Sequence record: KP869113
Length of the DNA stretch: 64,000 bases
Strand: one strand, 5' to 3'
Source of the DNA: Escherichia coli O157 typing phage 15
Part shown: one piece after another, positions 1-55,817 of the stretch
How the letters are laid out: each line of letters opens with the position of its first letter
How positions within the stretch are numbered: the stretch's first letter is position 1
Program-made: the position numbers and the translations under genes
Notes under the pieces: generated by a model
Told to the model about the DNA's origin: nothing
Database searches by the model: none
What the model saw: the letters and a program-made list of their open reading frames with translations, nothing else

Positions 1-34
1 AGACACGCGCTTTAACCATATAAGCTACTTGGAC
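1..34 (-). tRNA. partial tRNA (5' half only; rest lies before window start)
   Basis: D-arm-like ttaaccatataagc followed by ta and acceptor 5' strand, same layout as the Ala/Gln tRNAs in this cluster. Confidence 0.35.
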
Positions 35-41
35 TATAAAT

Positions 42-117
42 TGGGGTGACCTACGGGATTTGAACCCGTATAGACCATGTTCACAGCATGGGTCATTACC
101 ATTTATGATAAGGCCAC
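42..117 (-). tRNA. tRNA-His (anticodon GTG), CCA encoded
   Basis: T-arm acggg/atttgaa/cccgt on plus strand; anticodon stem ccatg/catgg with loop ttcacag (codon CAC); acceptor 7 bp. Confidence 0.65.
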
Positions 118-148
118 ATTTAAGGACTCTCGTAAGAATCCTTAGAAG

Positions 149-224
149 TGGCAGCGGCATAAGGATTTGAACCTTAATAGGACAGCTTCAGAGACTGCTG
201 CATTGCCAGTTATGCTATACCGCT
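149..224 (-). tRNA. tRNA-Gln (anticodon CTG), CCA encoded
   Basis: T-arm taagg/atttgaa/cctta; anticodon loop ttcagag (codon CAG); acceptor agcggta/tgccgct. Confidence 0.6.
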
Positions 225-229
225 AAATT

Positions 230-309
230 TGGTACTCCATATCGGATTCGAACCGATACATAACACAGATTTTAAGTCTGGCCTCTCTGCCAATTGGAGT
301 AATGGAGCA
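230..309 (-). tRNA. tRNA with anticodon TAA (Leu-type anticodon, short variable arm)
   Basis: T-arm atcgg/attcgaa/ccgat; anticodon stem caga/tctg with loop ttttaag (codon TTA); CCA encoded; D-arm short. Confidence 0.5.
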
Positions 310-310
310 T

Positions 311-386
311 TGGCGGGGGATGTTGGAATTGAACCAACTTCTTCGATTTCAAAGACCGAGGTTTTAACCTTGTAAACTAATCCCCT
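311..386 (-). tRNA. tRNA-Gln (anticodon TTG), CCA encoded
   Basis: T-arm gttgg/aattgaa/ccaac; anticodon loop ttcaaag (codon CAA); D-arm gttt/aaac. Confidence 0.55.
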
Positions 387-394
387 TTAAATCT

Positions 395-721
395 TTACTT
401 TCTTAGTGGATGAATAAAGAATGCCAACATAACTCTTTCCCTTGAAAATGCTCTTTCTTCTGGGACAACACTTTTAAGTTTCCACCCAACATAAATTCTC
501 CAGTAAAATTGTTTACCAAAGATTTTGATTGACGGCACAAAAGCGAATAATCCCCAAGCATTACTGTTCCACATTAGGAGATAACCAGTCTGATTATCTT
601 CAGGGTTAGAACTTACGTTGATATTACCTTTCCACTTAGTAACATCTTTTACATCTCTTCCTAATACATGGTAAGAGAAGTTATAAGCTTTGTTTCTCCA
701 GAGCCATCCAACTCTCTGCAT
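395..721 (-). CDS. hypothetical protein (N-terminus uncertain, abuts assembly gap)
   Basis: 108-aa ORF immediately 5' of the tRNA block; Trp/Tyr-rich; the N run starts 9 nt upstream of the listed start. Confidence 0.3.
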   Translation of the reverse strand: MQRVGWLWRNKAYNFSYHVLGRDVKDVTKWKGNINVSSNPEDNQTGYLLMWNSNAWGLFAFVPSIKIFGKQFYWRIYVGWKLKSVVPEERAFSRERVMLAFFIHPLRK

Positions 722-730
722 GTAGACACC

Positions 731-1450
731 NNNNNNNNNNNNNNNNNNNNNNNNNNNNNNNNNNNNNNNNNNNNNNNNNNNNNNNNNNNNNNNNNNNNNN
801 NNNNNNNNNNNNNNNNNNNNNNNNNNNNNNNNNNNNNNNNNNNNNNNNNNNNNNNNNNNNNNNNNNNNNNNNNNNNNNNNNNNNNNNNNNNNNNNNNNNN
901 NNNNNNNNNNNNNNNNNNNNNNNNNNNNNNNNNNNNNNNNNNNNNNNNNNNNNNNNNNNNNNNNNNNNNNNNNNNNNNNNNNNNNNNNNNNNNNNNNNNN
1001 NNNNNNNNNNNNNNNNNNNNNNNNNNNNNNNNNNNNNNNNNNNNNNNNNNNNNNNNNNNNNNNNNNNNNNNNNNNNNNNNNNNNNNNNNNNNNNNNNNNN
1101 NNNNNNNNNNNNNNNNNNNNNNNNNNNNNNNNNNNNNNNNNNNNNNNNNNNNNNNNNNNNNNNNNNNNNNNNNNNNNNNNNNNNNNNNNNNNNNNNNNNN
1201 NNNNNNNNNNNNNNNNNNNNNNNNNNNNNNNNNNNNNNNNNNNNNNNNNNNNNNNNNNNNNNNNNNNNNNNNNNNNNNNNNNNNNNNNNNNNNNNNNNNN
1301 NNNNNNNNNNNNNNNNNNNNNNNNNNNNNNNNNNNNNNNNNNNNNNNNNNNNNNNNNNNNNNNNNNNNNNNNNNNNNNNNNNNNNNNNNNNNNNNNNNNN
1401 NNNNNNNNNNNNNNNNNNNNNNNNNNNNNNNNNNNNNNNNNNNNNNNNNN
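731..1450. other. assembly gap (720 N)
   Basis: run of n; the X-filled ORFs across it are artefacts. Confidence 0.99.
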
Positions 1451-1520
1451 CTCACTAAAGGACTTGAACCTTTTTCTTCATCTTGTAAGGGTGATGTTTT
1501 ACCATATAAACTAAGCGAGT
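1451..1520 (-). tRNA. tRNA-Val (anticodon TAC), 3' end lost in gap
   Basis: T-arm aaagg/acttgaa/ccttt at 1457-1473; anticodon loop ttgtaag (codon GTA); D-arm gttt/aaac; acceptor agcgagt. Confidence 0.5.
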
Positions 1521-1616
1521 ATGAAAGAGGTCTGAAGTTGTGCCGCTAACTCAACTTCGTGGAATTTGTTACGGTCTTCAGTTGACTCAAAGCGGTCTTT
1601 CACTTGACCTCTGAAT

Positions 1617-1692
1617 TGGTGCTCCCACAAGGACTCGAACCCTGATAAGTTGCTTACAAGGCAACCGTAATAACCAATTATACGATAGGAGC
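1617..1692 (-). tRNA. tRNA-Thr (anticodon TGT), CCA encoded
   Basis: T-arm caagg/actcgaa/ccctg; anticodon stem gttgc/gcaac, loop ttacaag (codon ACA). Confidence 0.65.
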
Positions 1693-1699
1693 ATTAATT

Positions 1700-1774
1700 T
1701 GGAGCATCCAGAGGGAATCGAACCCTCAACCTCAGTTTGGAAGACTGTAATTTTCCCGTTTAAACTATGGATGC
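1700..1774 (-). tRNA. tRNA-Gly (anticodon TCC), CCA encoded
   Basis: T-arm gaggg/aatcgaa/ccctc; anticodon loop ttggaag (codon GGA); acceptor gcatcca/tggatgc perfect. Confidence 0.65.
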
Positions 1775-1780
1775 ACTAAT

Positions 1781-1856
1781 TGGTGGAGTCACTGAGAATT
1801 GAACTCAGTTCCCAAGTTTGCAAAACTCGAATTTTAACCATATAAACTATGACCCC
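1781..1856 (-). tRNA. tRNA-Ala (anticodon TGC), CCA encoded
   Basis: T-arm ctgag/aattgaa/ctcag; anticodon loop ttgcaaa (codon GCA). Confidence 0.6.
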
Positions 1857-1862
1857 ATTGTT

Positions 1863-1938
1863 TGGTACAGGTGGAGGGAATTGAACCCATCGTCTTACTG
1901 ATTAAGAGTCAGCCGCATAACCATTTTGCTACACCTGC
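1863..1938 (-). tRNA. tRNA-Lys (anticodon CTT), CCA encoded
   Basis: T-loop aattgaa flanked by ggg/ccc; anticodon stem actga/tcagc, loop ttaagag (codon AAG). Confidence 0.55.
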
Positions 1939-1945
1939 ATTAATT

Positions 1946-2022
1946 TGGTACACCTAGAGAGATTCGAACTCACACTGAGCAGATTCTAAGTCTGCTGCCT
2001 CTACCAGTTGGGCTATAGGTGC
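1946..2022 (-). tRNA. tRNA with anticodon TAG (Leu-type anticodon, short variable arm)
   Basis: T-loop attcgaa; perfect anticodon stem gcaga/tctgc with loop ttctaag (codon CTA); D-arm gcct/gggc; 77 nt including CCA. Confidence 0.55.
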
Positions 2023-2103
2023 ATTAAATCTTTTTAGAGAACTTCTAAGAACCTGAGCAACAAGGTTCCACAACAAGCGACTAATAACCTTAGAAGCCCT
2101 CTA

Positions 2104-2126
2104 AAAAGACCTAAATAGGTCTTTGC
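2104..2126 (-). terminator. rho-independent terminator-like hairpin
   Basis: aaagacc-taaatag-ggtcttt perfect 7-bp stem; on the minus strand the stem is followed by a T run. Confidence 0.4.
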
Positions 2127-2280
2127 ATAGTCTTGTTTAATCCGGTGACTAGAACCTTTGGAGAGCTTGATATTATCTCTTCTCCGTGACACCTACTAGG
2201 TGTTTTATCAGTGTGTACAACAATACACGCGGTATACCAAAGCAACATCCGAATGAAGCTTGGCTTTAAATCTTATTAGG

Positions 2281-2368
2281 CGGTAAGTAAAGGAGTCGAA
2301 CCCTCACCGTATCTCTACAGTGGCAACTGTTTTCAAGACAGTTTGGCTACCATTAGCCGCTACCTACC
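2281..2368 (-). tRNA. tRNA-Ser (anticodon TGA), class II long variable arm, no CCA
   Basis: T-loop agtcgaa; anticodon stem actgt/acagt with loop tttcaag (codon TCA); 88 nt; acceptor ggtaggt/acttacc. Confidence 0.6.
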
Positions 2369-2381
2369 CCTAATAAGACTG

Positions 2382-2786
2382 CTAAATACTTAACAGTCCT
2401 GCATGAACTTTCCTATGACAGTTTGAGCAAAGCACAACACACTTACGAACTTCACGCTTAATAGTTCCCCTAGAGTAAGTCTTAAGATTGCTTGGAGCAA
2501 AATCTTTCTCTTTAGGGTCTAAGTGATGAAAATCTAAAGCTACTGGCTCGGATTCACCACATATTCTGCATTTGCAAAACTTTTTATATCTACTAAGGAA
2601 CTCTCTGTTTCTCTTTTTGTCATATTTTGCTCTAACTTTCCTTTTTGCTTTATAAGTAGGGTCTTCTTTGTATCTCTTTGCTGAGTACTTAGCTTTACAA
2701 TCTTTGCAAGCAGACTGATAGCCATTCCCTCTTTTATGAAAGCAACTTAAAGGCTTCTCTTGAGAACATTTTCTACAAAGTTTCAT
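2382..2786 (-). CDS. HNH homing endonuclease
   Basis: 134-aa ORF; Cys-rich zinc-binding N-terminus and C-terminal DFHHLDP...CVVLCSNCHRKVH HNH motif; sits between tRNA genes. Confidence 0.75.
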   Translation of the reverse strand: MKLCRKCSQEKPLSCFHKRGNGYQSACKDCKAKYSAKRYKEDPTYKAKRKVRAKYDKKRNREFLSRYKKFCKCRICGESEPVALDFHHLDPKEKDFAPSNLKTYSRGTIKREVRKCVVLCSNCHRKVHAGLLSI

Positions 2787-2800
2787 ACAAGCACCTTTTC

Positions 2801-2871
2801 TGGCAGGGGTGTAGAGATTCGAACTCTAATCAAGAATTTTGGAGACTCTATTGCTGCCATAGCTCACCCCT
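2801..2871 (-). tRNA. tRNA-Trp (anticodon CCA), CCA encoded, short D-arm
   Basis: T-arm tagag/attcgaa/ctcta; anticodon loop tttggag (codon TGG); acceptor aggggtg/cacccct perfect. Confidence 0.55.
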
Positions 2872-3019
2872 ATTAAAACTATAATTCGAAGCTTACCGTA
2901 TTATCTCAACACTGTAAAGCCCCTTCTCAGATTATTTACATGTTCTGGAAAACATGAGATACAGACCACCTCCCTACAGGAAGACCCGCTTAGGTCGTCT
3001 AAGTAATCTGCTAACTAAT

Positions 3020-3096
3020 TGGCACACCCTACAGGATTCGAACCTGTAACTAACGATTTAGAAGACCGTTGCTCTATCCAATTGAACTAAGGGTGC
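3020..3096 (-). tRNA. tRNA-Arg (anticodon TCT), CCA encoded
   Basis: T-arm acagg/attcgaa/cctgt; anticodon loop ttagaag (codon AGA). Confidence 0.65.
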
Positions 3097-3361
3097 ATTA
3101 ACATTTTAAAGGGTACTCATTGCATTTAAGCCAAGCCCCATAAGGGATACCCTTTAGAATGTTGCCCACCTTATTAATCATACCGTGGGCTAGTACGCCA
3201 AATTCTTTGATGAGGGATTGGAAGACCTCACTGGTGTTTAGCCTATCAAGCTACTGCCAGAAAAACATTGTCGTTTGCATTTATTTTAAATTTGCAAAAT
3301 AGACGCTACGCAACGAAAACTAAGGTTACTATAAAGTAGTCACATCTCAATGTCAACAACT

Positions 3362-3437
3362 TTATTGAAATTGGTACTGGTAGGTGGAATCGAACCACCG
3401 ATGTTCCCTTATCAGGGGAGTGTTATAACCTTCTTAA
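3362..3437 (-). tRNA. tRNA-Ile (anticodon GAT), CCA encoded
   Basis: T-arm ggtgg/aatcgaa/ccacc; anticodon loop ttatcag (codon ATC). Confidence 0.6.
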
Positions 3438-3438
3438 C

Positions 3439-3515
3439 TATACCAGCTTGGAGGTTCAGATGGGAATCGAACCCACATTCATAGGGCTTATGAGACCCTT
3501 GCATTACCTTATCTG
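3439..3515 (-). tRNA. tRNA-Met (anticodon CAT), CCA encoded
   Basis: T-loop aatcgaa; anticodon stem agggc/accct, loop ttatgag (codon ATG); acceptor ggttcag/ctgaacc perfect. Confidence 0.6.
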
Positions 3516-3603
3516 CGACTGAACCAGAATAAGTACCCTAGTTAGAGAAACTGTTGAGTGGGTGTTTCCAGCCGCGCAGGTGTTTCTTAGTTAAGGGTGA
3601 ATT

Positions 3604-3679
3604 TGGTAGAAGTGGAGGGATTCGAACCCATCGCCTGTCAGATTAAAAGTCTGCCGCATCACCATTCTGCTACACTTCC
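3604..3679 (-). tRNA. tRNA-Lys (anticodon TTT), CCA encoded
   Basis: T-arm almost identical to the Lys-CTT gene; anticodon loop ttaaaag (codon AAA). Confidence 0.55.
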
Positions 3680-3684
3680 ATTAA

Positions 3685-3836
3685 ATTATCTTTGTAGATA
3701 AGCTACCCAGACTTGCTTAAGGTCTGTAGCGATGTGCCTTTTTGGGTTTAAATCTAGAATTTACCCTTTCACCCTTTGTGGTCGCATACTCACAGGTAAG
3801 CTTAATAACTTATCTACAAAGATAATTACCAGACCG
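3685..3836. repeat. perfect 18-bp inverted repeat (attatctttgtagataag / cttatctacaaagataat) enclosing about 116 nt
   Basis: read directly from sequence; arms at 3685-3702 and 3819-3836. Confidence 0.8.
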
Positions 3837-3964
3837 TTGTTTATCATCTTAAGTGCTACCATTACACCAACTCGACATCTGCCGAGTGAAGGAATCGAAC
3901 CTTCGCCTTTTCTTTACCGGAGAAATAGATTGTTTAAGTTTTGCTGTAAACGGTCTTCTGTAAA
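3837..3964 (-). ncRNA. structured RNA, family copy 1 (closing helix agaccgtt/aacggtct) with embedded tRNA-like T-arm
   Basis: conserved 5' box ttaccagacc and 3' box ttgctgtaaacggtcttctg; inside it gaagg/aatcgaa/ccttc T-arm plus gtg-taatggtag-cac D-arm-like hairpin, but no pairable acceptor 5' strand. Confidence 0.45.
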
Positions 3965-3971
3965 TTTGTTG

Positions 3972-4046
3972 AGCCAGACCAAGTTTTAAATTTTTCAAAA
4001 TTAAATTGGCTTGAAATTTTAAATAACTTGCTGTATTTGGTCTTCT
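3972..4046 (-). ncRNA. structured RNA, family copy 2 (closing helix agaccaa/ttggtct)
   Basis: same boxes (gccagaccaag ... ttgctgtatttggtcttctg); compensatory base changes in the helix relative to copy 1. Confidence 0.4.
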
Positions 4047-4106
4047 GCTCCTTTAAAGAATACTCGTAAGAACCCTTTAAGGGAGGGGCTAAATAGCCCT
4101 CTCAAA

Positions 4107-4184
4107 ATTGGCGGTTACGAAGGGATTTGAACCCTCATCATCTCCCGTGACAGGGGAGTATTTTAACCAAATTAAACTACATAA
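4107..4184 (-). tRNA. tRNA-Asp (anticodon GTC), CCA encoded
   Basis: T-loop atttgaa; perfect anticodon stem ctccc/gggag, loop gtgacag (codon GAC). Confidence 0.65.
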
Positions 4185-4189
4185 CCTTT

Positions 4190-4277
4190 ATTGGTGTGCC
4201 GTGTAGGAGTCGAACCTACCGAGTCTCAATGACAAGGGATTTACAGTCCCCACCGCTACCATCTACGGGATAACGAC
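4190..4277 (-). tRNA. tRNA-Tyr (anticodon GTA), class II long variable arm, CCA encoded
   Basis: T-arm gtagg/agtcgaa/cctac; anticodon stem ggga/tccc, loop tttacag (codon TAC); 88 nt. Confidence 0.6.
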
Positions 4278-4346
4278 ACATTTAATTTCTATTCAGGCTA
4301 AGGACTTGTACCTTACAAATCGGTGAGCAATCGCTTCTCTCCTAAA

Positions 4347-4423
4347 TTTGGCGGTTAGTCAGGGATTCGAACCCTGTGCCATTCGCTTAACAGGCGACCG
4401 CACATACCTTATGTGCTTCCTAA
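4347..4423 (-). tRNA. tRNA-Asn (anticodon GTT), CCA encoded
   Basis: T-arm caggg/attcgaa/ccctg; anticodon loop ttaacag (codon AAC). Confidence 0.6.
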
Positions 4424-4433
4424 CCATGTTTAG

Positions 4434-4503
4434 TATTACCAGACCGTATATTTCAATTTTTTCCGCTAAAAATTTAATAAATATTGCTGTAAACGGTCTT
4501 CTG
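4434..4503 (-). ncRNA. structured RNA, family copy 3 (closing helix agaccgt/acggtct, AT-rich loop)
   Basis: ttaccagaccgt ... ttgctgtaaacggtcttctg; no tRNA-like insert. Confidence 0.4.
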
Positions 4504-4509
4504 TAAATT

Positions 4510-4586
4510 TGGAGGCGGGTGCAGGAGTCGAACCTGCCGATACCATGCTAATGAGACATGTGAGACGCCCTTTCTCTATACCCGCA
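4510..4586 (-). tRNA. second CAT-anticodon tRNA (Met, fMet or Ile-lysidine type), CCA encoded
   Basis: T-arm gcagg/agtcgaa/cctgc; anticodon stem catgc/acatg, loop taatgag (codon ATG). Confidence 0.55.
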
Positions 4587-4605
4587 ATTCTTAATGACCA
4601 GACCA

Positions 4606-4672
4606 AATATCTTCTTTGTCCGATTAACTTTCAGATGAGTAGATTAAGTTTGCTGTAATTGGTCTTCTGTCA
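4606..4672 (-). ncRNA. structured RNA, family copy 4 (closing helix agaccaa/ttggtct)
   Basis: gaccagaccaaat ... ttgctgtaattggtcttctg; covaries with copies 1 and 3. Confidence 0.4.
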
Positions 4673-4677
4673 AAACT

Positions 4678-4755
4678 GGCGTTCCAGAAGGGATTTGAAC
4701 CCTCAAATATCCACTTTGAAAGAGTGGTGACTTTACCATTTTGTCTACTGGAACA
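4678..4755 (-). tRNA. tRNA-Glu (anticodon TTC), CCA encoded
   Basis: T-loop atttgaa; perfect anticodon stem ccact/agtgg, loop ttgaaag (codon GAA); acceptor gttccag/ctggaac perfect. Confidence 0.65.
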
Positions 4756-4762
4756 TTAATTT

Positions 4763-4842
4763 GGTCTCCGTTGAAGGATTTGAACCCTCGACCCCTTGCT
4801 CCCAAAGCAAGTGCTGCTAAACCAGACTGAGCTAAACGGAGA
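4763..4842 (-). tRNA. tRNA-Pro (anticodon TGG), CCA encoded
   Basis: T-loop atttgaa; perfect anticodon stem cttgc/gcaag, loop tcccaaa (codon CCA); acceptor ctccgtt/aacggag perfect. Confidence 0.65.
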
Positions 4843-5006
4843 TAAACTTTTCAAACTTTATGTAACCACTTTAACATTATTTTTTAGTGGTTGTCAAGAA
4901 CTTTTTTAAAATATTTTTCAGCATCTTAGAAAAGCTCTCATTTCGTTTCTATGTAGAACATATTAAAGGGTATTAAACACATTGTCAATACCCTTTTTAA
5001 AACTTT

Positions 5007-6422
5007 TTACCAGATATAACGGTCAATCATTACTGCTTTGAGCATTACACTGATTGGGTCAAACTTCTCACCACCAAGCAGAGCTTTTAAAGTGGCTGGA
5101 GAGAACCCTGATACCATTGCTACACCGTTATCCTTAACAGATACTTCGCAAGTACCATTACGGTTTGCTAAGTACCAGAATACCAGTTGTGGCATCTCAT
5201 ATCCAGCTTTTTTGTACTTACTCTGAATTGCTTCAAAGTTTGTACGACCGTTAGCTCCATCAACCTGATTAAACTCCATATCGGAGAAGATGATAAGCTT
5301 ACTTGGCATATCTTTCTGAGTCAAGTTGTTTCTTTTACCTGTTTCAAGAATGCGGTCAAAAGCTGCTTGTAAGTTAGTTGAGCCATATTCAACGTGTCGC
5401 ATCACCTGACGATGACGGTTTCGTAAATCACCACTCAGTTCGATGAAGTGAGGGTTTGTTGAATAAACCATCAACTCATTCTTAAAGCAACCTGTATTGC
5501 GTTCTGCTACATACAAGGCAAGTGATACACCAATATCCAGAGCAGTAATGGAGCCAAAATTCACCCAAGACATTGAACTTGATACATCAGACATACACAA
5601 GATGTTTTCACCTTCTGCCATCCAGTTTGGTAGTGCTTTCCACTGCTCATTAGCAACATCTGCATTACCATACTTGACAGATTTAATCACATCGTATGGG
5701 TAAACAGCACCAGCGTTAATCTTAGTCTCACCTTTTGATAAGGACTCGATGTAAGCTTTGTAACGCTCTCCATCTTTACGGTTAAACAGTTTTTGGTAAC
5801 GTGCAGCAGCAAGTGAAGGAATCTTACTGTAGTCAATCTTACCAAACTCATTAGCAGAGATTTTTTGCTCAACTGTATCAGATAGTGCAGACAACAGTGT
5901 GCGGTACTCTTTCTCACTCAAGTTGGCAAACTTGCAGAAACGTTTTACAAACTGCTTATGACGTGGTTTGACTCGTGGTAACCACTTAGCCGCCAAACCT
6001 GCTGTTGCAGGGTCTAGTAATGCTGCTTCTAAATGTTTGAAGGCATCTGTCTCGAAACGAGTACCTACGAAGATTTTGAAGTCATCAAAACGACCAAGTT
6101 CTGCAATCTTATCCATAATGCGAAGAACCTGCGTAGACTCTAAAACTTTGTCTTCAATCGCTTGAAGTAAAACAGCTCTGAAGGCTTTACGCTCACCCAT
6201 ACCTTCTCGTACATCTCGCATATGCAGTAAAATACGAACTGCAACATCAACATCCTCACGCAAAGCTTTGTAGAACAGGTCTGGTAAGATTTCTACATTG
6301 CTACGGCTTGAACCAGCAGCTTTGTAAAAGTCTACAAGAGCAGACATTGATGAAGTATGGTTTACAGCACCATTTTCAGTTCGACCTGCATGAAGGTGCG
6401 CATGTTTAAATAACTCGCTCAT
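5007..6422 (-). CDS. vWA (MIDAS) domain protein with N-terminal alpha-helical domain; Ro60/TROVE-like or DUF2828-like architecture
   Basis: 471-aa ORF; C-terminal ILCMSDVSSSMSW (DxSxS MIDAS) ... LIIFSDMEF typical of vWA fold; first gene downstream of the tRNA/ncRNA block. Confidence 0.6.
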   Translation of the reverse strand: MSELFKHAHLHAGRTENGAVNHTSSMSALVDFYKAAGSSRSNVEILPDLFYKALREDVDVAVRILLHMRDVREGMGERKAFRAVLLQAIEDKVLESTQVLRIMDKIAELGRFDDFKIFVGTRFETDAFKHLEAALLDPATAGLAAKWLPRVKPRHKQFVKRFCKFANLSEKEYRTLLSALSDTVEQKISANEFGKIDYSKIPSLAAARYQKLFNRKDGERYKAYIESLSKGETKINAGAVYPYDVIKSVKYGNADVANEQWKALPNWMAEGENILCMSDVSSSMSWVNFGSITALDIGVSLALYVAERNTGCFKNELMVYSTNPHFIELSGDLRNRHRQVMRHVEYGSTNLQAAFDRILETGKRNNLTQKDMPSKLIIFSDMEFNQVDGANGRTNFEAIQSKYKKAGYEMPQLVFWYLANRNGTCEVSVKDNGVAMVSGFSPATLKALLGGEKFDPISVMLKAVMIDRYIW

Positions 6423-10678: not shown

Positions 10679-10971
10679 TGAGTAAAGTACAGGTTGTTTT
10701 CCCTATTTGTGACTTCTCACTAGAGCGTGAACTTGACCTGTACGAAGAAATTACTGACGAAATTATCTGGTCTGTTGTAGAAGAGGCTATCAAGAAGCTG
10801 TATGGTGGCCTCTTAAATCCATCAAGTAAGAAGTTAAGCACTAAGCAAGTAGCTGACCCATATGTTTCATACGATGCCTACAACAAGCCTTTTGAAAATA
10901 CCTGCTTTGACCTTATGGTAGGTAATAACAAAGTCAACTATTTCTTCGTCAGAGAGTTTAACGATGAGTAA
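10678..10971 (+). CDS. hypothetical protein
   Basis: 97-aa ORF. Confidence 0.45.
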   Translation: MSKVQVVFPICDFSLERELDLYEEITDEIIWSVVEEAIKKLYGGLLNPSSKKLSTKQVADPYVSYDAYNKPFENTCFDLMVGNNKVNYFFVREFNDE

Positions 10972-11308
10972 GCTCCATGTCACAGTTTACAAAAACTTCT
11001 CAGATATCAAAGAGTCTTTAACAAATAAGCTTGACTTACAACGTAAAAGACTCTTTTTAATGTATGACATAGACAACTACAACCATCCTAAAGAGTTTAA
11101 CTACAAAGATGGTACAAAGGTTGTTGAGTTTGAAGATTCTGTGACGGTGTATGTCAAGCATGACTTACCAGCAAAGTATATAGGGATGTTAGAGTACTAC
11201 ATATTCAAACATACTGGTATGCGTGGTGAATCTGTTAAGATATCTTCTATAGAAGTTTTTGAGAAACCTAACACACAACTTAAAAAGTATTTAATGAGGA
11301 AACTGTAA
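10964..11308 (+). CDS. hypothetical protein
   Basis: 114-aa ORF. Confidence 0.45.
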   Translation: MSKLHVTVYKNFSDIKESLTNKLDLQRKRLFLMYDIDNYNHPKEFNYKDGTKVVEFEDSVTVYVKHDLPAKYIGMLEYYIFKHTGMRGESVKISSIEVFEKPNTQLKKYLMRKL

Positions 11309-54845: not shown

Positions 54846-55817
54846 NNNNNNNNNNNNNNNNNNNNNNNNNNNNNNNNNNNNNNNNNNNNNNNNNNNNNNN
54901 NNNNNNNNNNNNNNNNNNNNNNNNNNNNNNNNNNNNNNNNNNNNNNNNNNNNNNNNNNNNNNNNNNNNNNNNNNNNNNNNNNNNNNNNNNNNNNNNNNNN
55001 NNNNNNNNNNNNNNNNNNNNNNNNNNNNNNNNNNNNNNNNNNNNNNNNNNNNNNNNNNNNNNNNNNNNNNNNNNNNNNNNNNNNNNNNNNNNNNNNNNNN
55101 NNNNNNNNNNNNNNNNNNNNNNNNNNNNNNNNNNNNNNNNNNNNNNNNNNNNNNNNNNNNNNNNNNNNNNNNNNNNNNNNNNNNNNNNNNNNNNNNNNNN
55201 NNNNNNNNNNNNNNNNNNNNNNNNNNNNNNNNNNNNNNNNNNNNNNNNNNNNNNNNNNNNNNNNNNNNNNNNNNNNNNNNNNNNNNNNNNNNNNNNNNNN
55301 NNNNNNNNNNNNNNNNNNNNNNNNNNNNNNNNNNNNNNNNNNNNNNNNNNNNNNNNNNNNNNNNNNNNNNNNNNNNNNNNNNNNNNNNNNNNNNNNNNNN
55401 NNNNNNNNNNNNNNNNNNNNNNNNNNNNNNNNNNNNNNNNNNNNNNNNNNNNNNNNNNNNNNNNNNNNNNNNNNNNNNNNNNNNNNNNNNNNNNNNNNNN
55501 NNNNNNNNNNNNNNNNNNNNNNNNNNNNNNNNNNNNNNNNNNNNNNNNNNNNNNNNNNNNNNNNNNNNNNNNNNNNNNNNNNNNNNNNNNNNNNNNNNNN
55601 NNNNNNNNNNNNNNNNNNNNNNNNNNNNNNNNNNNNNNNNNNNNNNNNNNNNNNNNNNNNNNNNNNNNNNNNNNNNNNNNNNNNNNNNNNNNNNNNNNNN
55701 NNNNNNNNNNNNNNNNNNNNNNNNNNNNNNNNNNNNNNNNNNNNNNNNNNNNNNNNNNNNNNNNNNNNNNNNNNNNNNNNNNNNNNNNNNNNNNNNNNNN
55801 NNNNNNNNNNNNNNNNN
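54846..55817. other. assembly gap (972 N)
   Basis: run of n; left flank duplicated at 59745, right flank duplicated at 60718. Confidence 0.99.

What the first reader, a model, noticed from the sequence alone, without database searches (positions are those of the whole stretch)
3685..3836. Perfect 18-bp inverted repeat enclosing ~116 nt between tRNA-Lys and the first hairpin RNA
attatctttgtagataag at 3685-3702 is exactly reverse-complemented at 3819-3836. A perfect inverted repeat this long is unlikely by chance in a non-coding segment; candidates are a strong RNA hairpin (processing site or bidirectional terminator) or a nuclease / recombination site.
Basis: seen in the sequence. Interest (0 to 1): 0.45.

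Follow-up and report, generated by a model that had tools for sequence, protein, structure and literature searches.

The report
Closing stem of a phage RNA
The inverted repeat is real and forms the long closing stem of a conserved ~144-nt structured RNA that Felix O1-like phages encode just ahead of their tRNA-Lys gene, in an operon headed by a Ro60-like protein; it is probably a processed small RNA of unknown job, not a terminator or a DNA recombination site.

Summary
The repeat exists, but the right arm lies at 3809-3826, not 3819-3836. The perfect match is 19 nt (3684-3702 / 3809-3827). It extends to a 24-bp helix (3684-3707 with 3804-3827). No resampled window reached 18 nt.

The window is a Felix O1-like phage. 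The repeat sits in a 22-tRNA cluster on the minus strand, 5 nt upstream of tRNA-Lys(UUU).

Comparison with relatives shows an RNA helix read on the tRNA strand. It is 98.7% paired, has compensatory changes, a coordinated one-pair deletion, and wobbles that are G·U only on the minus strand. It closes a ~144-nt RNA with an internal hairpin whose 9-nt loop (CYUWWGCAA) recurs once, at the same place, in six diverged lineages. Those lineages keep a 22-30 bp closing helix of unrelated sequence.

The cluster begins with a gene whose predicted fold matches Ro60. It also contains hairpin RNAs with an ACAGCAA motif, one of them YrlA-like.

Best reading: a new structured non-coding RNA, co-transcribed with the tRNAs and probably excised by RNase III and RNase P. 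It may be a partner of the Ro60-like protein. Expression, processing and binding are all inferred. Rfam holds no matching family.

The parts
3804..3827 (-). P1, 5' strand of the closing helix (RNA sense AAUUAUCUUUGUAGAUAAGUUAUU); contains the right arm of the inverted repeat
   Evidence: fold; covariation: 24 pairs, 98.3% paired, 4 pairs changed on both sides, plus a one-pair coordinated deletion
3684..3707 (-). P1, 3' strand of the closing helix (GGUAGCUUAUCUACAAAGAUAAUU); contains the left arm of the inverted repeat; ends 4-5 nt before the tRNA-Lys 5' end
3769..3799 (-). P2 region. Its fold is predicted only. It differs between allele types A and B and carries a motif GRGUAKGC that I saw by eye in most lineages
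   Evidence: minimum-free-energy folds; motif noted by eye, not tested statistically
3744..3766 (-). P3 hairpin (GGGUAAAUU-CUA-GAUUUAAACCC). The core AUUCUAGAUU is invariant in the 22 Felix/Moogle/Susp-virus sequences
   Evidence: inner 4 pairs 100% paired; the outer pairs GGG/CCC versus AGC/GCU were read by eye
3708..3726 (-). P4 hairpin CAGAC-CUUAAGCAA-GUCUG (loop 3713-3721). This is the most conserved feature of the element and a candidate protein-binding site
   Evidence: one such hairpin per locus in window and L086-L090, always here; 8 lineages, 100% paired, 4 of 5 pairs changed on both sides; closing C-G and loop C.U..GCAA invariant
3604..3679 (-). tRNA-Lys(UUU), immediately 3' of the element on the RNA. 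Its 5' end is the expected RNase P cut
3829..3961 (-). Neighbouring hairpin RNA 'H-d'. It has a basal helix CAG(AAG)ACCGUU/AACGGUCUG, an ACAGCAA motif, and a circularly permuted tRNA-like insert (T arm, loop-closed acceptor stem, D arm), which makes it YrlA-like. It ends 1 nt before P1
   Evidence: (Rfam tRNA partial hit 22 bits). Equivalent RNAs in L092 and L095 hit Rfam YrlA
3973..4048 (-). Hairpin RNA H-c (AGACCAA-AU-ACAGCAA...UUGGUCU-GG)
4439..4504 (-). Hairpin RNA H-b (same basal helix and ACAGCAA motif)
4598..4671 (-). Hairpin RNA H-a (same basal helix and ACAGCAA motif)
5007..6422 (-). Ro60-like protein gene (471 aa; Pfam DUF2828 + DUF7788), on the same strand, directly upstream of the tRNA / small-RNA cluster
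   Evidence: AlphaFold2 pLDDT 88.8; the top 13 Foldseek PDB hits are all Ro60/TROVE, TM 0.48-0.66; PhageMaP preprint 10.1101/2024.10.10.617714
4868..4897 (-). Sigma-70-like promoter match (TTGACA-18-TAAAGT with TG) upstream of tRNA-Pro. It is a candidate start of the transcript that contains the element; a second match lies at 4960-4988
   Evidence: consensus scan only; the number of matches is no higher than in shuffles

Best explanation
The inverted repeat is the closing helix (P1, 24 bp) of a ~144-nt structured non-coding RNA, window 3684-3827, read on the minus strand.

Shown by sequence comparison:
- The two arms pair as RNA on the tRNA strand.
- P1 encloses conserved hairpins. One of them (P4) carries a 9-nt loop CYUWWGCAA.
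- The whole module is conserved at one position, just 5' of tRNA-Lys, in Felix O1-like (Ounavirinae-type) phages.
- The cluster is headed by a Ro60-like gene.

Inferred mechanism:
1. The RNA is made as part of the polycistronic tRNA / small-RNA transcript that starts downstream of the Ro60-like gene.
2. RNase P cuts 4-5 nt past P1 at the tRNA-Lys 5' end.
3. The 22-30 bp P1 helix is a host RNase III substrate and/or protects the RNA ends. Either way a stable ~120-145-nt RNA would be released and the upstream Y-like RNAs separated from the downstream tRNAs.

Speculative step: the released RNA joins the phage's Y-RNA-like set. Its P4 hairpin looks like a minimal version of the stem-UUACAGCAA motif of the neighbouring hairpin RNAs and would be bound by the Ro60-like protein. 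P1-P3 would then act as a distinct effector module.
For: The repeat is real and not chance.

The window is a Felixounavirus with 22 tRNAs, all on the minus strand.

P1 pairs as RNA on the minus strand:
- Across 22 distinct sequences of two allele types, 98.7% of cells are paired. With the partner columns slid, only 29-46% are paired.
- Five pairs changed on both sides (U-A/C-G, G-C/C-G, U·G/G-C in P1; G-C/A-U in P4).
- One base pair was lost on both strands together.
- Non-Watson-Crick pairs are G·U on the minus strand, which would be A·C on the plus strand. There is one C·A cell at the single P1 pair that carries one (6/146); the 8 C·U or U·U cells at pair 5/147 favour neither strand.
- The minus strand folds better (-48.3 kcal/mol, z -5.9, against -44.8, z -4.3).

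Conservation at one locus:
- A covariance model built from these sequences finds the homolog in a phage whose Ro60-like protein is 63% identical (L086, 61 bits, E 2e-11).
- In six lineages (window, L086-L090; Ro60-like identity 53-63%), a module closed by a 22-30 bp helix of unrelated sequence and spanning 142-166 nt lies just 5' of tRNA-Lys.
- Each contains exactly one hairpin with the loop CYUNNGCAA. Its stem covaries.

Other support:
- About 189 GenBank phages carry type A at 95% identity or more, and 60 carry type B.
- No ORF is conserved across it.
- The upstream gene is Ro60-like by predicted fold. In Bas63 it is reported to counter the ppl defence, and the authors speculated about Y RNAs.
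- Neighbouring hairpins share helix-ACAGCAA. The same design lies next to DUF2828 Ro60-like genes in distant phages, and some of those RNAs hit Rfam YrlA.
- In Chen et al. 2014, Y RNAs lie within 4 kb of Ro60 on the same strand.
Against: There is no expression or end-mapping data. Transcription, RNase III cleavage and stability are all inferred.

The element fails Y-RNA membership tests:
- It has no GNCGAA motif or bulged helix in its terminal stem.
- It has no tRNA-like module.
- It has no Rfam hit.

Other points against:
- The resemblance of P4 to the ACAGCAA motif is 6 of 9 loop positions and was judged by eye.
- The element was not found in Ro60-like loci outside the Ounavirinae-type lineages (L080-L084, L091-L093). 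It is therefore not an obligate partner of that protein family.
- Its fixed position before tRNA-Lys could instead point to a role in cis.
- Most covariation within the 22-sequence set separates just two allele types, so it represents few independent events. The shuffle controls do not correct for that.
- The 8-lineage P4 set was selected by a pattern that required 5 flanking pairs.
Confidence: 0.6

Rival explanations
1. It is only a processing or insulating spacer. P1 is an RNase III site, like the stems that flank 16S and 23S rRNA. It cuts the long tRNA / small-RNA precursor and keeps neighbouring RNAs from misfolding. The enclosed RNA is discarded and has no function of its own.
For: The helix is kept at 22-30 bp while its sequence is replaced.

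Other long-stem modules sit directly 5' of other tRNAs and end in the same ...UUAAU|tRNA junction: 2024-2114 before tRNA-Leu and 3100-3163 before tRNA-Arg. In L087-L089 similar modules lie before tRNA-Pro.

From my own knowledge: phage T4 species 1 RNA in its tRNA cluster is an RNase III substrate.
Against: The interior is not free to drift. The P4 loop CYUWWGCAA and its closing C-G pair are invariant across lineages whose P1 sequences are unalignable. The P3 core is invariant in 22 sequences. Type A is 95-100% conserved in about 189 phages.
Confidence: 0.2
2. It is a cis-acting leader of tRNA-Lys(UUU). The structure controls RNase P access and hence the yield of this tRNA, or it acts as a decoy for nucleases that attack tRNA-Lys (PrrC, RloC, PARIS-type defences).
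For: It always lies immediately 5' of tRNA-Lys: UUU in five lineages, and the CUU-UUU pair in L090.

In L086 the P1 helix abuts the tRNA +1 position with no single-stranded leader.

From my own knowledge: phage tRNA-Lys is a known counter to tRNA-Lys-cleaving defences.
Against: P4 does not covary with the anticodon stem of the phage's tRNA-Lys. The anticodon stem-loop is identical in the window, Sf16 and L086, while their P4 stems differ. The P4 loop is 9 nt and is not CUUUUAA. Conserved gene order alone could explain the fixed position.
Confidence: 0.12
3. It is a DNA-level element: a cruciform, a recombination or nuclease target, a miniature inverted-repeat transposable element, or the footprint of a homing-endonuclease cassette.
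For: It has terminal inverted repeats. The interior is swapped as a cassette between allele types A and B, with sharp boundaries inside the repeat arms: 51.6% interior identity against 91-100% in the outer 11 nt of each arm and 88-100% in the flanks. HNH endonuclease genes are inserted in other spacers of the cluster in relatives.
Against: - The wobble positions are G·U on one strand only, which a DNA cruciform or a protein-bound palindrome would not favour.
- It is single-copy in the window.
- It has no copies in 5,426 E. coli genomes or 72,556 plasmids.
- It occupies the same locus in all lineages.
- I saw no target-site duplication, and no ORF is enclosed.
- Internal hairpins covary as well.
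Confidence: 0.03
4. It is an intrinsic or bidirectional terminator, or an attenuator.
For: The structure is very stable (-48 kcal/mol).
Against: - There is no U-tract after the stem on either strand.
- The terminator scan finds nothing here.
- The stem is AT-rich and encloses 96 nt.
- tRNA-Lys, tRNA-Met and tRNA-Ile follow without a detectable promoter until 3356-3328.
Confidence: 0.03
5. It is part of a small protein-coding gene on the plus strand, annotated as 'ORF94' in Felix O1 and 'mio_111' in phage mio.
For: The window has an 85-codon plus-strand ORF at 3732-3989, and it is annotated in two GenBank records.
Against: The ORF runs antisense through the tRNA-like RNA. It is broken into 32- and 49-codon pieces in Sf16 and is absent in L086. 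The pattern of change is base-pair-preserving rather than codon-preserving.
Confidence: 0.01

Closest known systems
Bacterial and phage Y RNAs (YrlA/YrlB; Rfam RF02553), partners of Ro60/Rsr
   Same: It is encoded about 1.2 kb downstream of a Ro60-like gene on the same strand. Its 5' and 3' ends pair into a long stem that closes a structured interior. It is one of several different small RNAs in the locus, and the immediate neighbour (3829-3961) has the YrlA-type permuted tRNA-like module.
   Different: It has no GNCGAA(N)G motif or bulged helix in the terminal stem, no tRNA-like domain and no Rfam YrlA hit. The terminal stem is a near-perfect 22-30 bp duplex whose sequence is not conserved. 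The conserved motif sits in an internal hairpin loop. Binding to the Ro60-like protein is untested.
Phage T4 stable RNAs, species 1 and 2 (rnaC, rnaD), in the T4 tRNA cluster
   Same: These are small structured RNAs of 119-139 nt with no known function, co-located with phage tRNA genes on the same strand and presumably cut from the same precursor. From my own knowledge, species 1 is cleaved by RNase III in vitro.
   Different: There is no sequence or model similarity: covariance model R1 finds nothing in the T4 region. T4 rnaC ends in a T-arm-like hairpin and lacks a long closing duplex. T4 has no Ro60-like gene in the stretch examined.
RNase III processing stems of rRNA operons and phage T7 early transcripts
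   Same: A duplex of 20 bp or more is formed by sequences flanking an RNA that is to be excised from a polycistronic precursor.
   Different: Here the enclosed RNA is only about 100 nt, and cleavage has not been shown.
Dictyostelium Class I RNAs (Rfam RF01414)
   Same: The neighbouring hairpin RNAs share the design: a short terminal stem starting at a 5' G/A, then UUACAGCAA, a variable region, the 3' strand, and (C)UG. They give sub-threshold RF01414 hits of 17-30 bits. The P4 loop CUUAAGCAA matches 6 of 9 positions of UUACAGCAA.
   Different: All hits are below Rfam's gathering score. P4 has no variable region. Class I RNAs are reported as restricted to Dictyostelia, with the RRM protein Rnp1A as partner (PMC7919456). 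Common descent or a common binding protein is untested.

Membership tests
Y RNA (YrlA/YrlB type) | Encoded near (within ~4 kb of) a Ro60 ortholog, on the same strand | tested here: met
   The Ro60-like ORF is at 5007-6422 (-) and the element at 3684-3827 (-). The fold match to Ro60 is; the criterion is from Chen et al. 2014.
Y RNA (YrlA/YrlB type) | 5' and 3' ends pair to form a long terminal stem | tested here: met
   A 24-bp P1 helix with covariation; 22-30 bp in 8 lineages. The true RNA ends are not known.
Y RNA (YrlA/YrlB type) | Ro-binding motif (GNCGAAN0-1G / CGAA in a bulged helix of the terminal stem) | tested here: not met
   P1 is an uninterrupted duplex without this motif. GCCGAAG occurs in the P2 region of only two type-B sequences.
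Y RNA (YrlA/YrlB type) | tRNA-like module (T arm, D arm, closed acceptor stem) - YrlA only | tested here: not met
   ARAGORN and Rfam give no tRNA or YrlA hit on 3684-3827. The neighbour at 3829-3961 does have such a module.
Y RNA (YrlA/YrlB type) | Physical association with Ro60/Rsr | not testable with these tools
   This needs RIP/CLIP or EMSA with the Ro60-like protein (Bas63 gp130 homolog).
RNase III substrate | About two helical turns (20 bp or more) of mostly Watson-Crick duplex RNA | tested here: met
   24 pairs (21 Watson-Crick + 3 G·U) in the window; 22-30 bp in all lineages.
RNase III substrate | Staggered double-strand cleavage that depends on rnc | not testable with these tools
   No RNA end data are available.
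Intrinsic terminator | Short GC-rich hairpin followed by a U-tract | tested here: not met
   The terminator scan finds nothing at 3680-3832. The stem is AT-rich and no T-run follows.
Miniature inverted-repeat transposable element | Terminal inverted repeats plus target-site duplication, several copies, and presence/absence polymorphism | tested here: not met
   It is single-copy and at the same locus in all relatives. There are no copies in E. coli genomes or plasmids. I saw no flanking duplication.
T4 species 1/2 stable RNAs | Sequence or structure homology to rnaC / rnaD | tested here: not met
   Covariance model R1 gives no match in the T4 tRNA region L085. The folds differ.
Stem-ACAGCAA hairpin RNAs next to DUF2828 Ro60-like genes (family defined here) | A 6-8 bp helix, then (U)U-ACAGCAA directly 3' of the 5' strand, then a variable insert and the 3' strand | tested here: inconclusive
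   P4 has the helix and a 9-nt loop CUUAAGCAA (6 of 9 positions identical to UUACAGCAA; GCAA invariant) but no insert. The resemblance was judged by eye; no model was built.

The most novel reading that the evidence does not exclude
The element would be a new class of Ro60-associated RNA. In this reading its P4 hairpin presents a ...WGCAA motif that is the recognition code of the DUF2828 branch of Ro60-like proteins.

The same code appears as stem-UUACAGCAA in tandem hairpin RNAs beside these genes. I saw it in phages of Escherichia, Yersinia, Aeromonas, Campylobacter, Listeria, Staphylococcus and Mycobacterium. It is also the hallmark of Dictyostelium Class I RNAs, whose function is unknown.

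The element's long duplex and P2/P3 would then be a cargo or effector module that the Ro60-like protein brings to a host nuclease or to a defence system (ppl). One candidate cargo is an RNase III or dsRNA decoy.
Probability: 0.15. Interest if true: 0.85.

Novelty: new variant of a known kind. Interest (0 to 1): 0.6.

Why it matters
Felix O1-like phages are widely used as typing and therapy phages. Their Ro60-like protein (Bas63 gp130) has been reported to counter an uncharacterised defence system (ppl), and its RNA partners have only been guessed at.

This work gives exact coordinates, structures and conserved motifs for candidate partner RNAs. It also shows that the spacers of the 'tRNA cluster' are not junk. 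They hold at least five structured RNAs:
- four stem-ACAGCAA hairpins, one of them YrlA-like;
- the 144-nt element studied here.

That makes direct experiments possible: RIP of gp130, P4 loop mutants, and comparison of rnc and wild-type hosts.

If the GCAA motif is the recognition element of DUF2828 Ro60-like proteins, it would link a protein family found in 709 phage records to a defined RNA family. It might also shed light on the unexplained Class I RNAs of social amoebae.

Tried and rejected
- **Rfam.** I searched the window (1-6000 and 3670-4110) and the relatives. No family matches the element.
- **Pattern scan of IMG/VR.** ATTCTAGATT-N-CTACARACC returned 42 loci. The 49-nt and 54-nt-spaced hits are coding sequence of unrelated phages and were discarded.
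- **Anticodon-stem mimicry of tRNA-Lys by P4.** Rejected: there is no co-variation between P4 and the tRNA-Lys anticodon stem.
- **T4 rnaC/rnaD homology.** Rejected.
- **Plus-strand ORF.** Rejected.
- **Mobile element.** Rejected.
- **Terminator.** Rejected.
- **Retron-type non-coding RNA** (flanking inverted repeats). Considered and rejected: the neighbours are tRNAs, and no reverse transcriptase was seen in the annotated stretches.
- **Sequence search of the Ro60-like protein against PDB.** Both phmmer and a profile gave nothing. Only the fold search worked.
- **Foldseek against AFDB50.** The aim was to ask whether Dictyostelium has a DUF2828 protein. The library was unavailable.
- **Avesson et al. 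2011** (Class I RNA-binding proteins) is not in the paper library.
- **MAFFT alignment of the eight diverged elements** was not structure-aware and was not used for counts.
- **A relaxed scan for any GCAA-ending loop** was dominated by tRNA anticodon loops and noise.

Full report
**Observation**

The 18-mer ATTATCTTTGTAGATAAG is at 3685-3702 as reported. Its reverse complement is at 3809-3826, ten bases left of the reported 3819-3836. The perfect repeat is 19 nt (3684-3702 / 3809-3827). It extends to 22 nt with one mismatch. As minus-strand RNA it forms a 24-bp helix, 3804-3827 with 3684-3707, made of 21 Watson-Crick and 3 G·U pairs.

It is the longest perfect inverted repeat with arms within 300 nt in the window. 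None of 200 first-order Markov resamples reached 18 nt; the maximum was 16. The 18-mer has no other copy in the window, even with 3 mismatches.

**Setting**

The window is a Felix O1-like phage (Felixounavirus). A 2-kb stretch around the finding matches 329 phage records. ARAGORN finds 22 tRNA genes, all on the minus strand.

On that strand the order around the finding is:
- tRNA-Asp
- small hairpins, then hairpin RNAs H-c and H-d
- the element (3827 down to 3684)
- 4-5 nt
- tRNA-Lys(UUU), tRNA-Met, tRNA-Ile

Promoter-like matches on the minus strand lie before tRNA-Pro (4897-4868 and 4988-4960) and after tRNA-Ile (3356-3328). There are none in the element, and no terminator-like site there. 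These are consensus matches only.

**It is an RNA helix on the tRNA strand**

The element exists in two allele types.
- Type A (the window, Felix O1) is 95-100% identical in about 189 GenBank phages.
- Type B is in 60 records: Mooglevirus, Suspvirus and some Felixounavirus.

Between the window and phage bumzen the flanks are 93-96% identical, and the outer 11 nt of each arm are 91-100% identical. The interior is only 51.6% identical. The interior has therefore been exchanged as a cassette.

I aligned 22 distinct sequences. The named structure (P1, the inner part of P3, and P4) gave these results:
- 98.7% of cells are paired, against 29-46% when the partner columns are slid.
- Five pairs changed on both sides.
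- One base pair was deleted on both strands together.

The non-Watson-Crick pairs are almost all G·U as read on the minus strand, which would be A·C on the plus strand. Only one C·A cell occurs (at pair 6/146), and the 8 C·U or U·U cells at pair 5/147 favour neither strand. The minus strand also folds better.

One caveat applies. Most of these changes separate the two allele types, so they represent few independent events.

**Independent lineages**

I used the Ro60-like protein as an anchor to fetch loci from phages whose homolog is 53-63% identical (L086-L090). All keep the gene order DUF5681, Ro60-like gene, tRNA cluster.

Each locus has a module just 5' of tRNA-Lys. It is closed by a 22-30 bp helix and spans 142-166 nt. 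Only L086 is similar in sequence (covariance model R1, 61 bits, E 2e-11). In L087-L090 the closing helix has an unrelated sequence.

A hairpin with at least 5 flanking pairs and a 9-nt loop C-Y-U-N-N-G-C-A-A occurs exactly once in the window and once in each of L086-L090. It is always inside this module, next to the 3' strand of the closing helix.

Across eight lineages its five pairs are 100% paired, and four of the five changed on both sides. The closing C-G pair and the loop positions C.U..GCAA never vary. The pairing was part of the search pattern. The evidence therefore lies in the one-per-locus, same-position recurrence and in the variety of stems, not in the 100% figure.

By eye, a second motif (GRGUAKGC) recurs in the P2 region. 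The interior is therefore under its own constraint.

**What it is not**

- **Not coding.** The 85-codon plus-strand ORF, annotated as ORF94 in Felix O1, is broken in Sf16 and absent in L086.
- **Not a mobile element.** It is single-copy, sits at one locus, and has no match in E. coli genomes or plasmids.
- **Not a terminator**.
- **Not in Rfam**.
- **Not similar to T4 rnaC/rnaD**.
- **Not a mimic of the tRNA-Lys anticodon stem.** P4 varies while the tRNA's anticodon stem-loop stays the same.

**Context that guides the mechanism**

The ORF at 5007-6422 (minus strand; Pfam DUF2828 + DUF7788) has no sequence match in the PDB. Its AlphaFold2 model has mean pLDDT 88.8. Its best 13 structural matches are all Ro60 / Rsr / TROVE proteins, including the Ro60 of Thermus phage phiLo, over the full length with TM 0.48-0.66.

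A preprint on phage Bas63, a Felixounavirus among the hits, reports that the homolog gp130 resembles Ro60 and counters the ppl defence. It speculates that some 'tRNA genes' downstream may be Y RNAs, but it names none.

In bacteria and some phages, Y RNAs lie within about 4 kb of Ro60 on the same strand. They have a terminal stem, and at least one per genome has a tRNA-like module.

Four spacers of the window's cluster hold hairpin RNAs with one design: a basal helix CAG(AAG)ACC.../...GGUCUG, followed directly by (U)U-ACAGCAA. One of them, at 3829-3961, carries a T arm, a loop-closed 7-bp acceptor stem and a D arm in the YrlA order.

The same design recurs in tandem within about 300 nt of the Ro60-like gene in more distant loci. 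It consists of a 6-8 bp helix of any sequence, 0-2 nt, ACAGCAA, 25-105 nt, and the 3' strand.
- Metagenomic loci: L080, L081, L083, L084, L091-L093.
- Cultured phages: Listeria A511, Mycobacterium phage Kingsolomon, Campylobacter F358, Aeromonas LAh_9 and a Staphylococcus phage.

Some members give significant but sub-threshold hits to Rfam YrlA: 40.9 bits (E 1e-7) in L092 and 37.9 bits in Kingsolomon. The Ro60-like gene is present in 709 phage records.

**Most likely mechanism**

*Shown.* The repeat arms form the closing helix of a conserved structured RNA on the tRNA strand, at a fixed place in a Ro60-like / tRNA / hairpin-RNA gene cluster.

*Inferred.*
- It is transcribed with the tRNAs.
- RNase P cuts 4-5 nt 3' of P1.
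- The 22-30 bp duplex is cut by host RNase III and/or shields the ends. Either way this would yield a stable RNA of roughly 120-145 nt and separate the upstream hairpin RNAs from the downstream tRNAs.

*Speculative.* The P4 hairpin (CAGAC-CUUAAGCAA-GUCUG) resembles the base of the neighbouring hairpin RNAs. In the window it even has the same helix, CAG-ACC/GGU-CUG, without the bulge, and its loop shares 6 of 9 positions with UUACAGCAA. P4 could therefore be the docking site for the Ro60-like protein. The element would then be a further, structurally distinct member of the phage's Y-RNA-like set.

*Against the last step.*
- The element lacks the defining Y-RNA motif and the tRNA-like module.
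- It is limited to Ounavirinae-type lineages.
- Its fixed place before tRNA-Lys could mean a role in cis.

I put about 0.85-0.9 on 'conserved structured RNA whose closing helix is the repeat'. I put about 0.4 each on the RNase III step and on the Ro60-like partnership.

**Novelty and verdict**

The Ro60-like nature of the protein is already in the literature, and Y RNAs near Ro60 genes are a known kind. The element itself has no described family. It fails the Y-RNA membership tests that could be run, and it has a distinctive architecture: a near-perfect two-turn duplex closing three hairpins, one with an invariant 9-nt loop.

I rate it a new variant of a known kind, namely small structured RNAs of phage tRNA / Ro60 loci. 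Interest is moderate to good. The value lies mainly in making the RNA partners of the phage Ro60-like anti-defence protein directly testable.

Noticed in passing
window 4598-4671, 4439-4504, 3973-4048, 3829-3961 (minus strand); L080, L081, L083, L084, L086-L098: A family of hairpin RNAs built as [6-8 bp helix]-(0-2 nt)-ACAGCAA-(25-105 nt)-[3' strand]. They lie in tandem directly beside DUF2828-type Ro60-like genes. I saw them in phages of Escherichia, Yersinia, Aeromonas, Campylobacter, Listeria, Staphylococcus and Mycobacterium, and in several metagenomic lineages. The helices covary freely while ACAGCAA is fixed. They are likely the cognate Y-like RNAs of this protein family.
   Followed up: partly
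window 4440-4498 and 3975-4042; L092 7534-7592 and 7619-7670; L097 2523-2897; L094 2661-2716: These hairpin RNAs give repeated sub-threshold hits (17-30 bits) to Rfam RF01414, the Class I RNAs of Dictyostelium. Those have a terminal stem, CCUUACAGCAA, a variable part, and a 3' strand plus CUGU, and they are reported to be unique to social amoebae. Papers that mention DUF2828 concern eukaryotes (plants, a tardigrade genome). I could not check whether Dictyostelium has such a protein, because the AFDB library was unavailable.
   Followed up: partly
window 3829-3961 (minus strand): A circularly permuted tRNA-like RNA, with its ends at the position of the anticodon stem. It has a T arm GAAGGUUCGAUUCCUUC, an acceptor stem ACUCGGC/GUCGAGU closed by an AGAU loop, and a D arm. 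This is the YrlA layout. One GenBank record (Si3) annotates it as 'tRNA-pseudo'.
   Followed up: partly
window 2024-2114 and 3100-3163 (minus strand): Two more modules closed by long stems lie directly 5' of tRNA genes. A 26-bp stem precedes tRNA-Leu(UAG) and a 16-bp stem precedes tRNA-Arg(UCU). Like the element, both end in ...UUAAU followed by the tRNA. L086 has the tRNA-Leu one as well (10906-10993).
   Followed up: partly
L087 8844-9023, L088 8647-8838, L089 8800-8995: In more distant Ounavirinae-type phages, another module bounded by 23-27-nt inverted repeats 134-144 nt apart (about 180-196 nt overall) lies between the Ro60-like gene and the first tRNA (tRNA-Pro). It lacks the GCAA loop.
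   Followed up: partly
window 3695-3816 versus L003 (bumzen) and L002 (fKMPT1): The interior of the element exists as two alleles that are about 52% identical. They are exchanged between otherwise 88-96% identical genomes, with breakpoints inside the conserved outer 11 bp of the closing helix.
   Followed up: yes
L094 1465-2016 (Listeria phage A511): A ROOL RNA-like match (87.5 bits; Rfam gathering score 99.1; E 2e-16) lies about 1 kb upstream of the Ro60-like gene and its ACAGCAA hairpins, among tRNA genes.
   Followed up: no
L003 579-977, L009 63-410, L007 55-402: HNH homing-endonuclease genes are inserted in different spacers of the tRNA cluster in some relatives (bumzen, mio, Sf16). The cluster is therefore a hot spot for insertions.
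   Followed up: no
window 4965-4996 (minus strand): A 12-bp hairpin just after the Ro60-like gene's stop codon carries a perfect TTGACA in its loop. That hexamer belongs to one of the two promoter-like matches upstream of tRNA-Pro. The hairpin could be a combined terminator and promoter.
   Followed up: no
window 3246-3430 (minus strand): A weak Rfam hit to permuted tmRNA (29.2 bits; gathering score 47; E 0.004) overlaps tRNA-Ile and the 275-nt spacer before tRNA-Arg.
   Followed up: no
L093 5231-5305 and 3817-3891; L089 8607-8681: ARAGORN calls a tRNA with anticodon CUA (labelled tRNA-Pyl, a possible amber suppressor). It also calls tRNAs with two-base 'anticodons' in metagenomic phage contigs that carry the Ro60-like gene.
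   Followed up: no
window 731-1450, 54846-55817 and six shorter runs: The window contains 2,398 masked bases (runs of N). One run covers most of the gap between tRNA-Gln and tRNA-Val.
   Followed up: no
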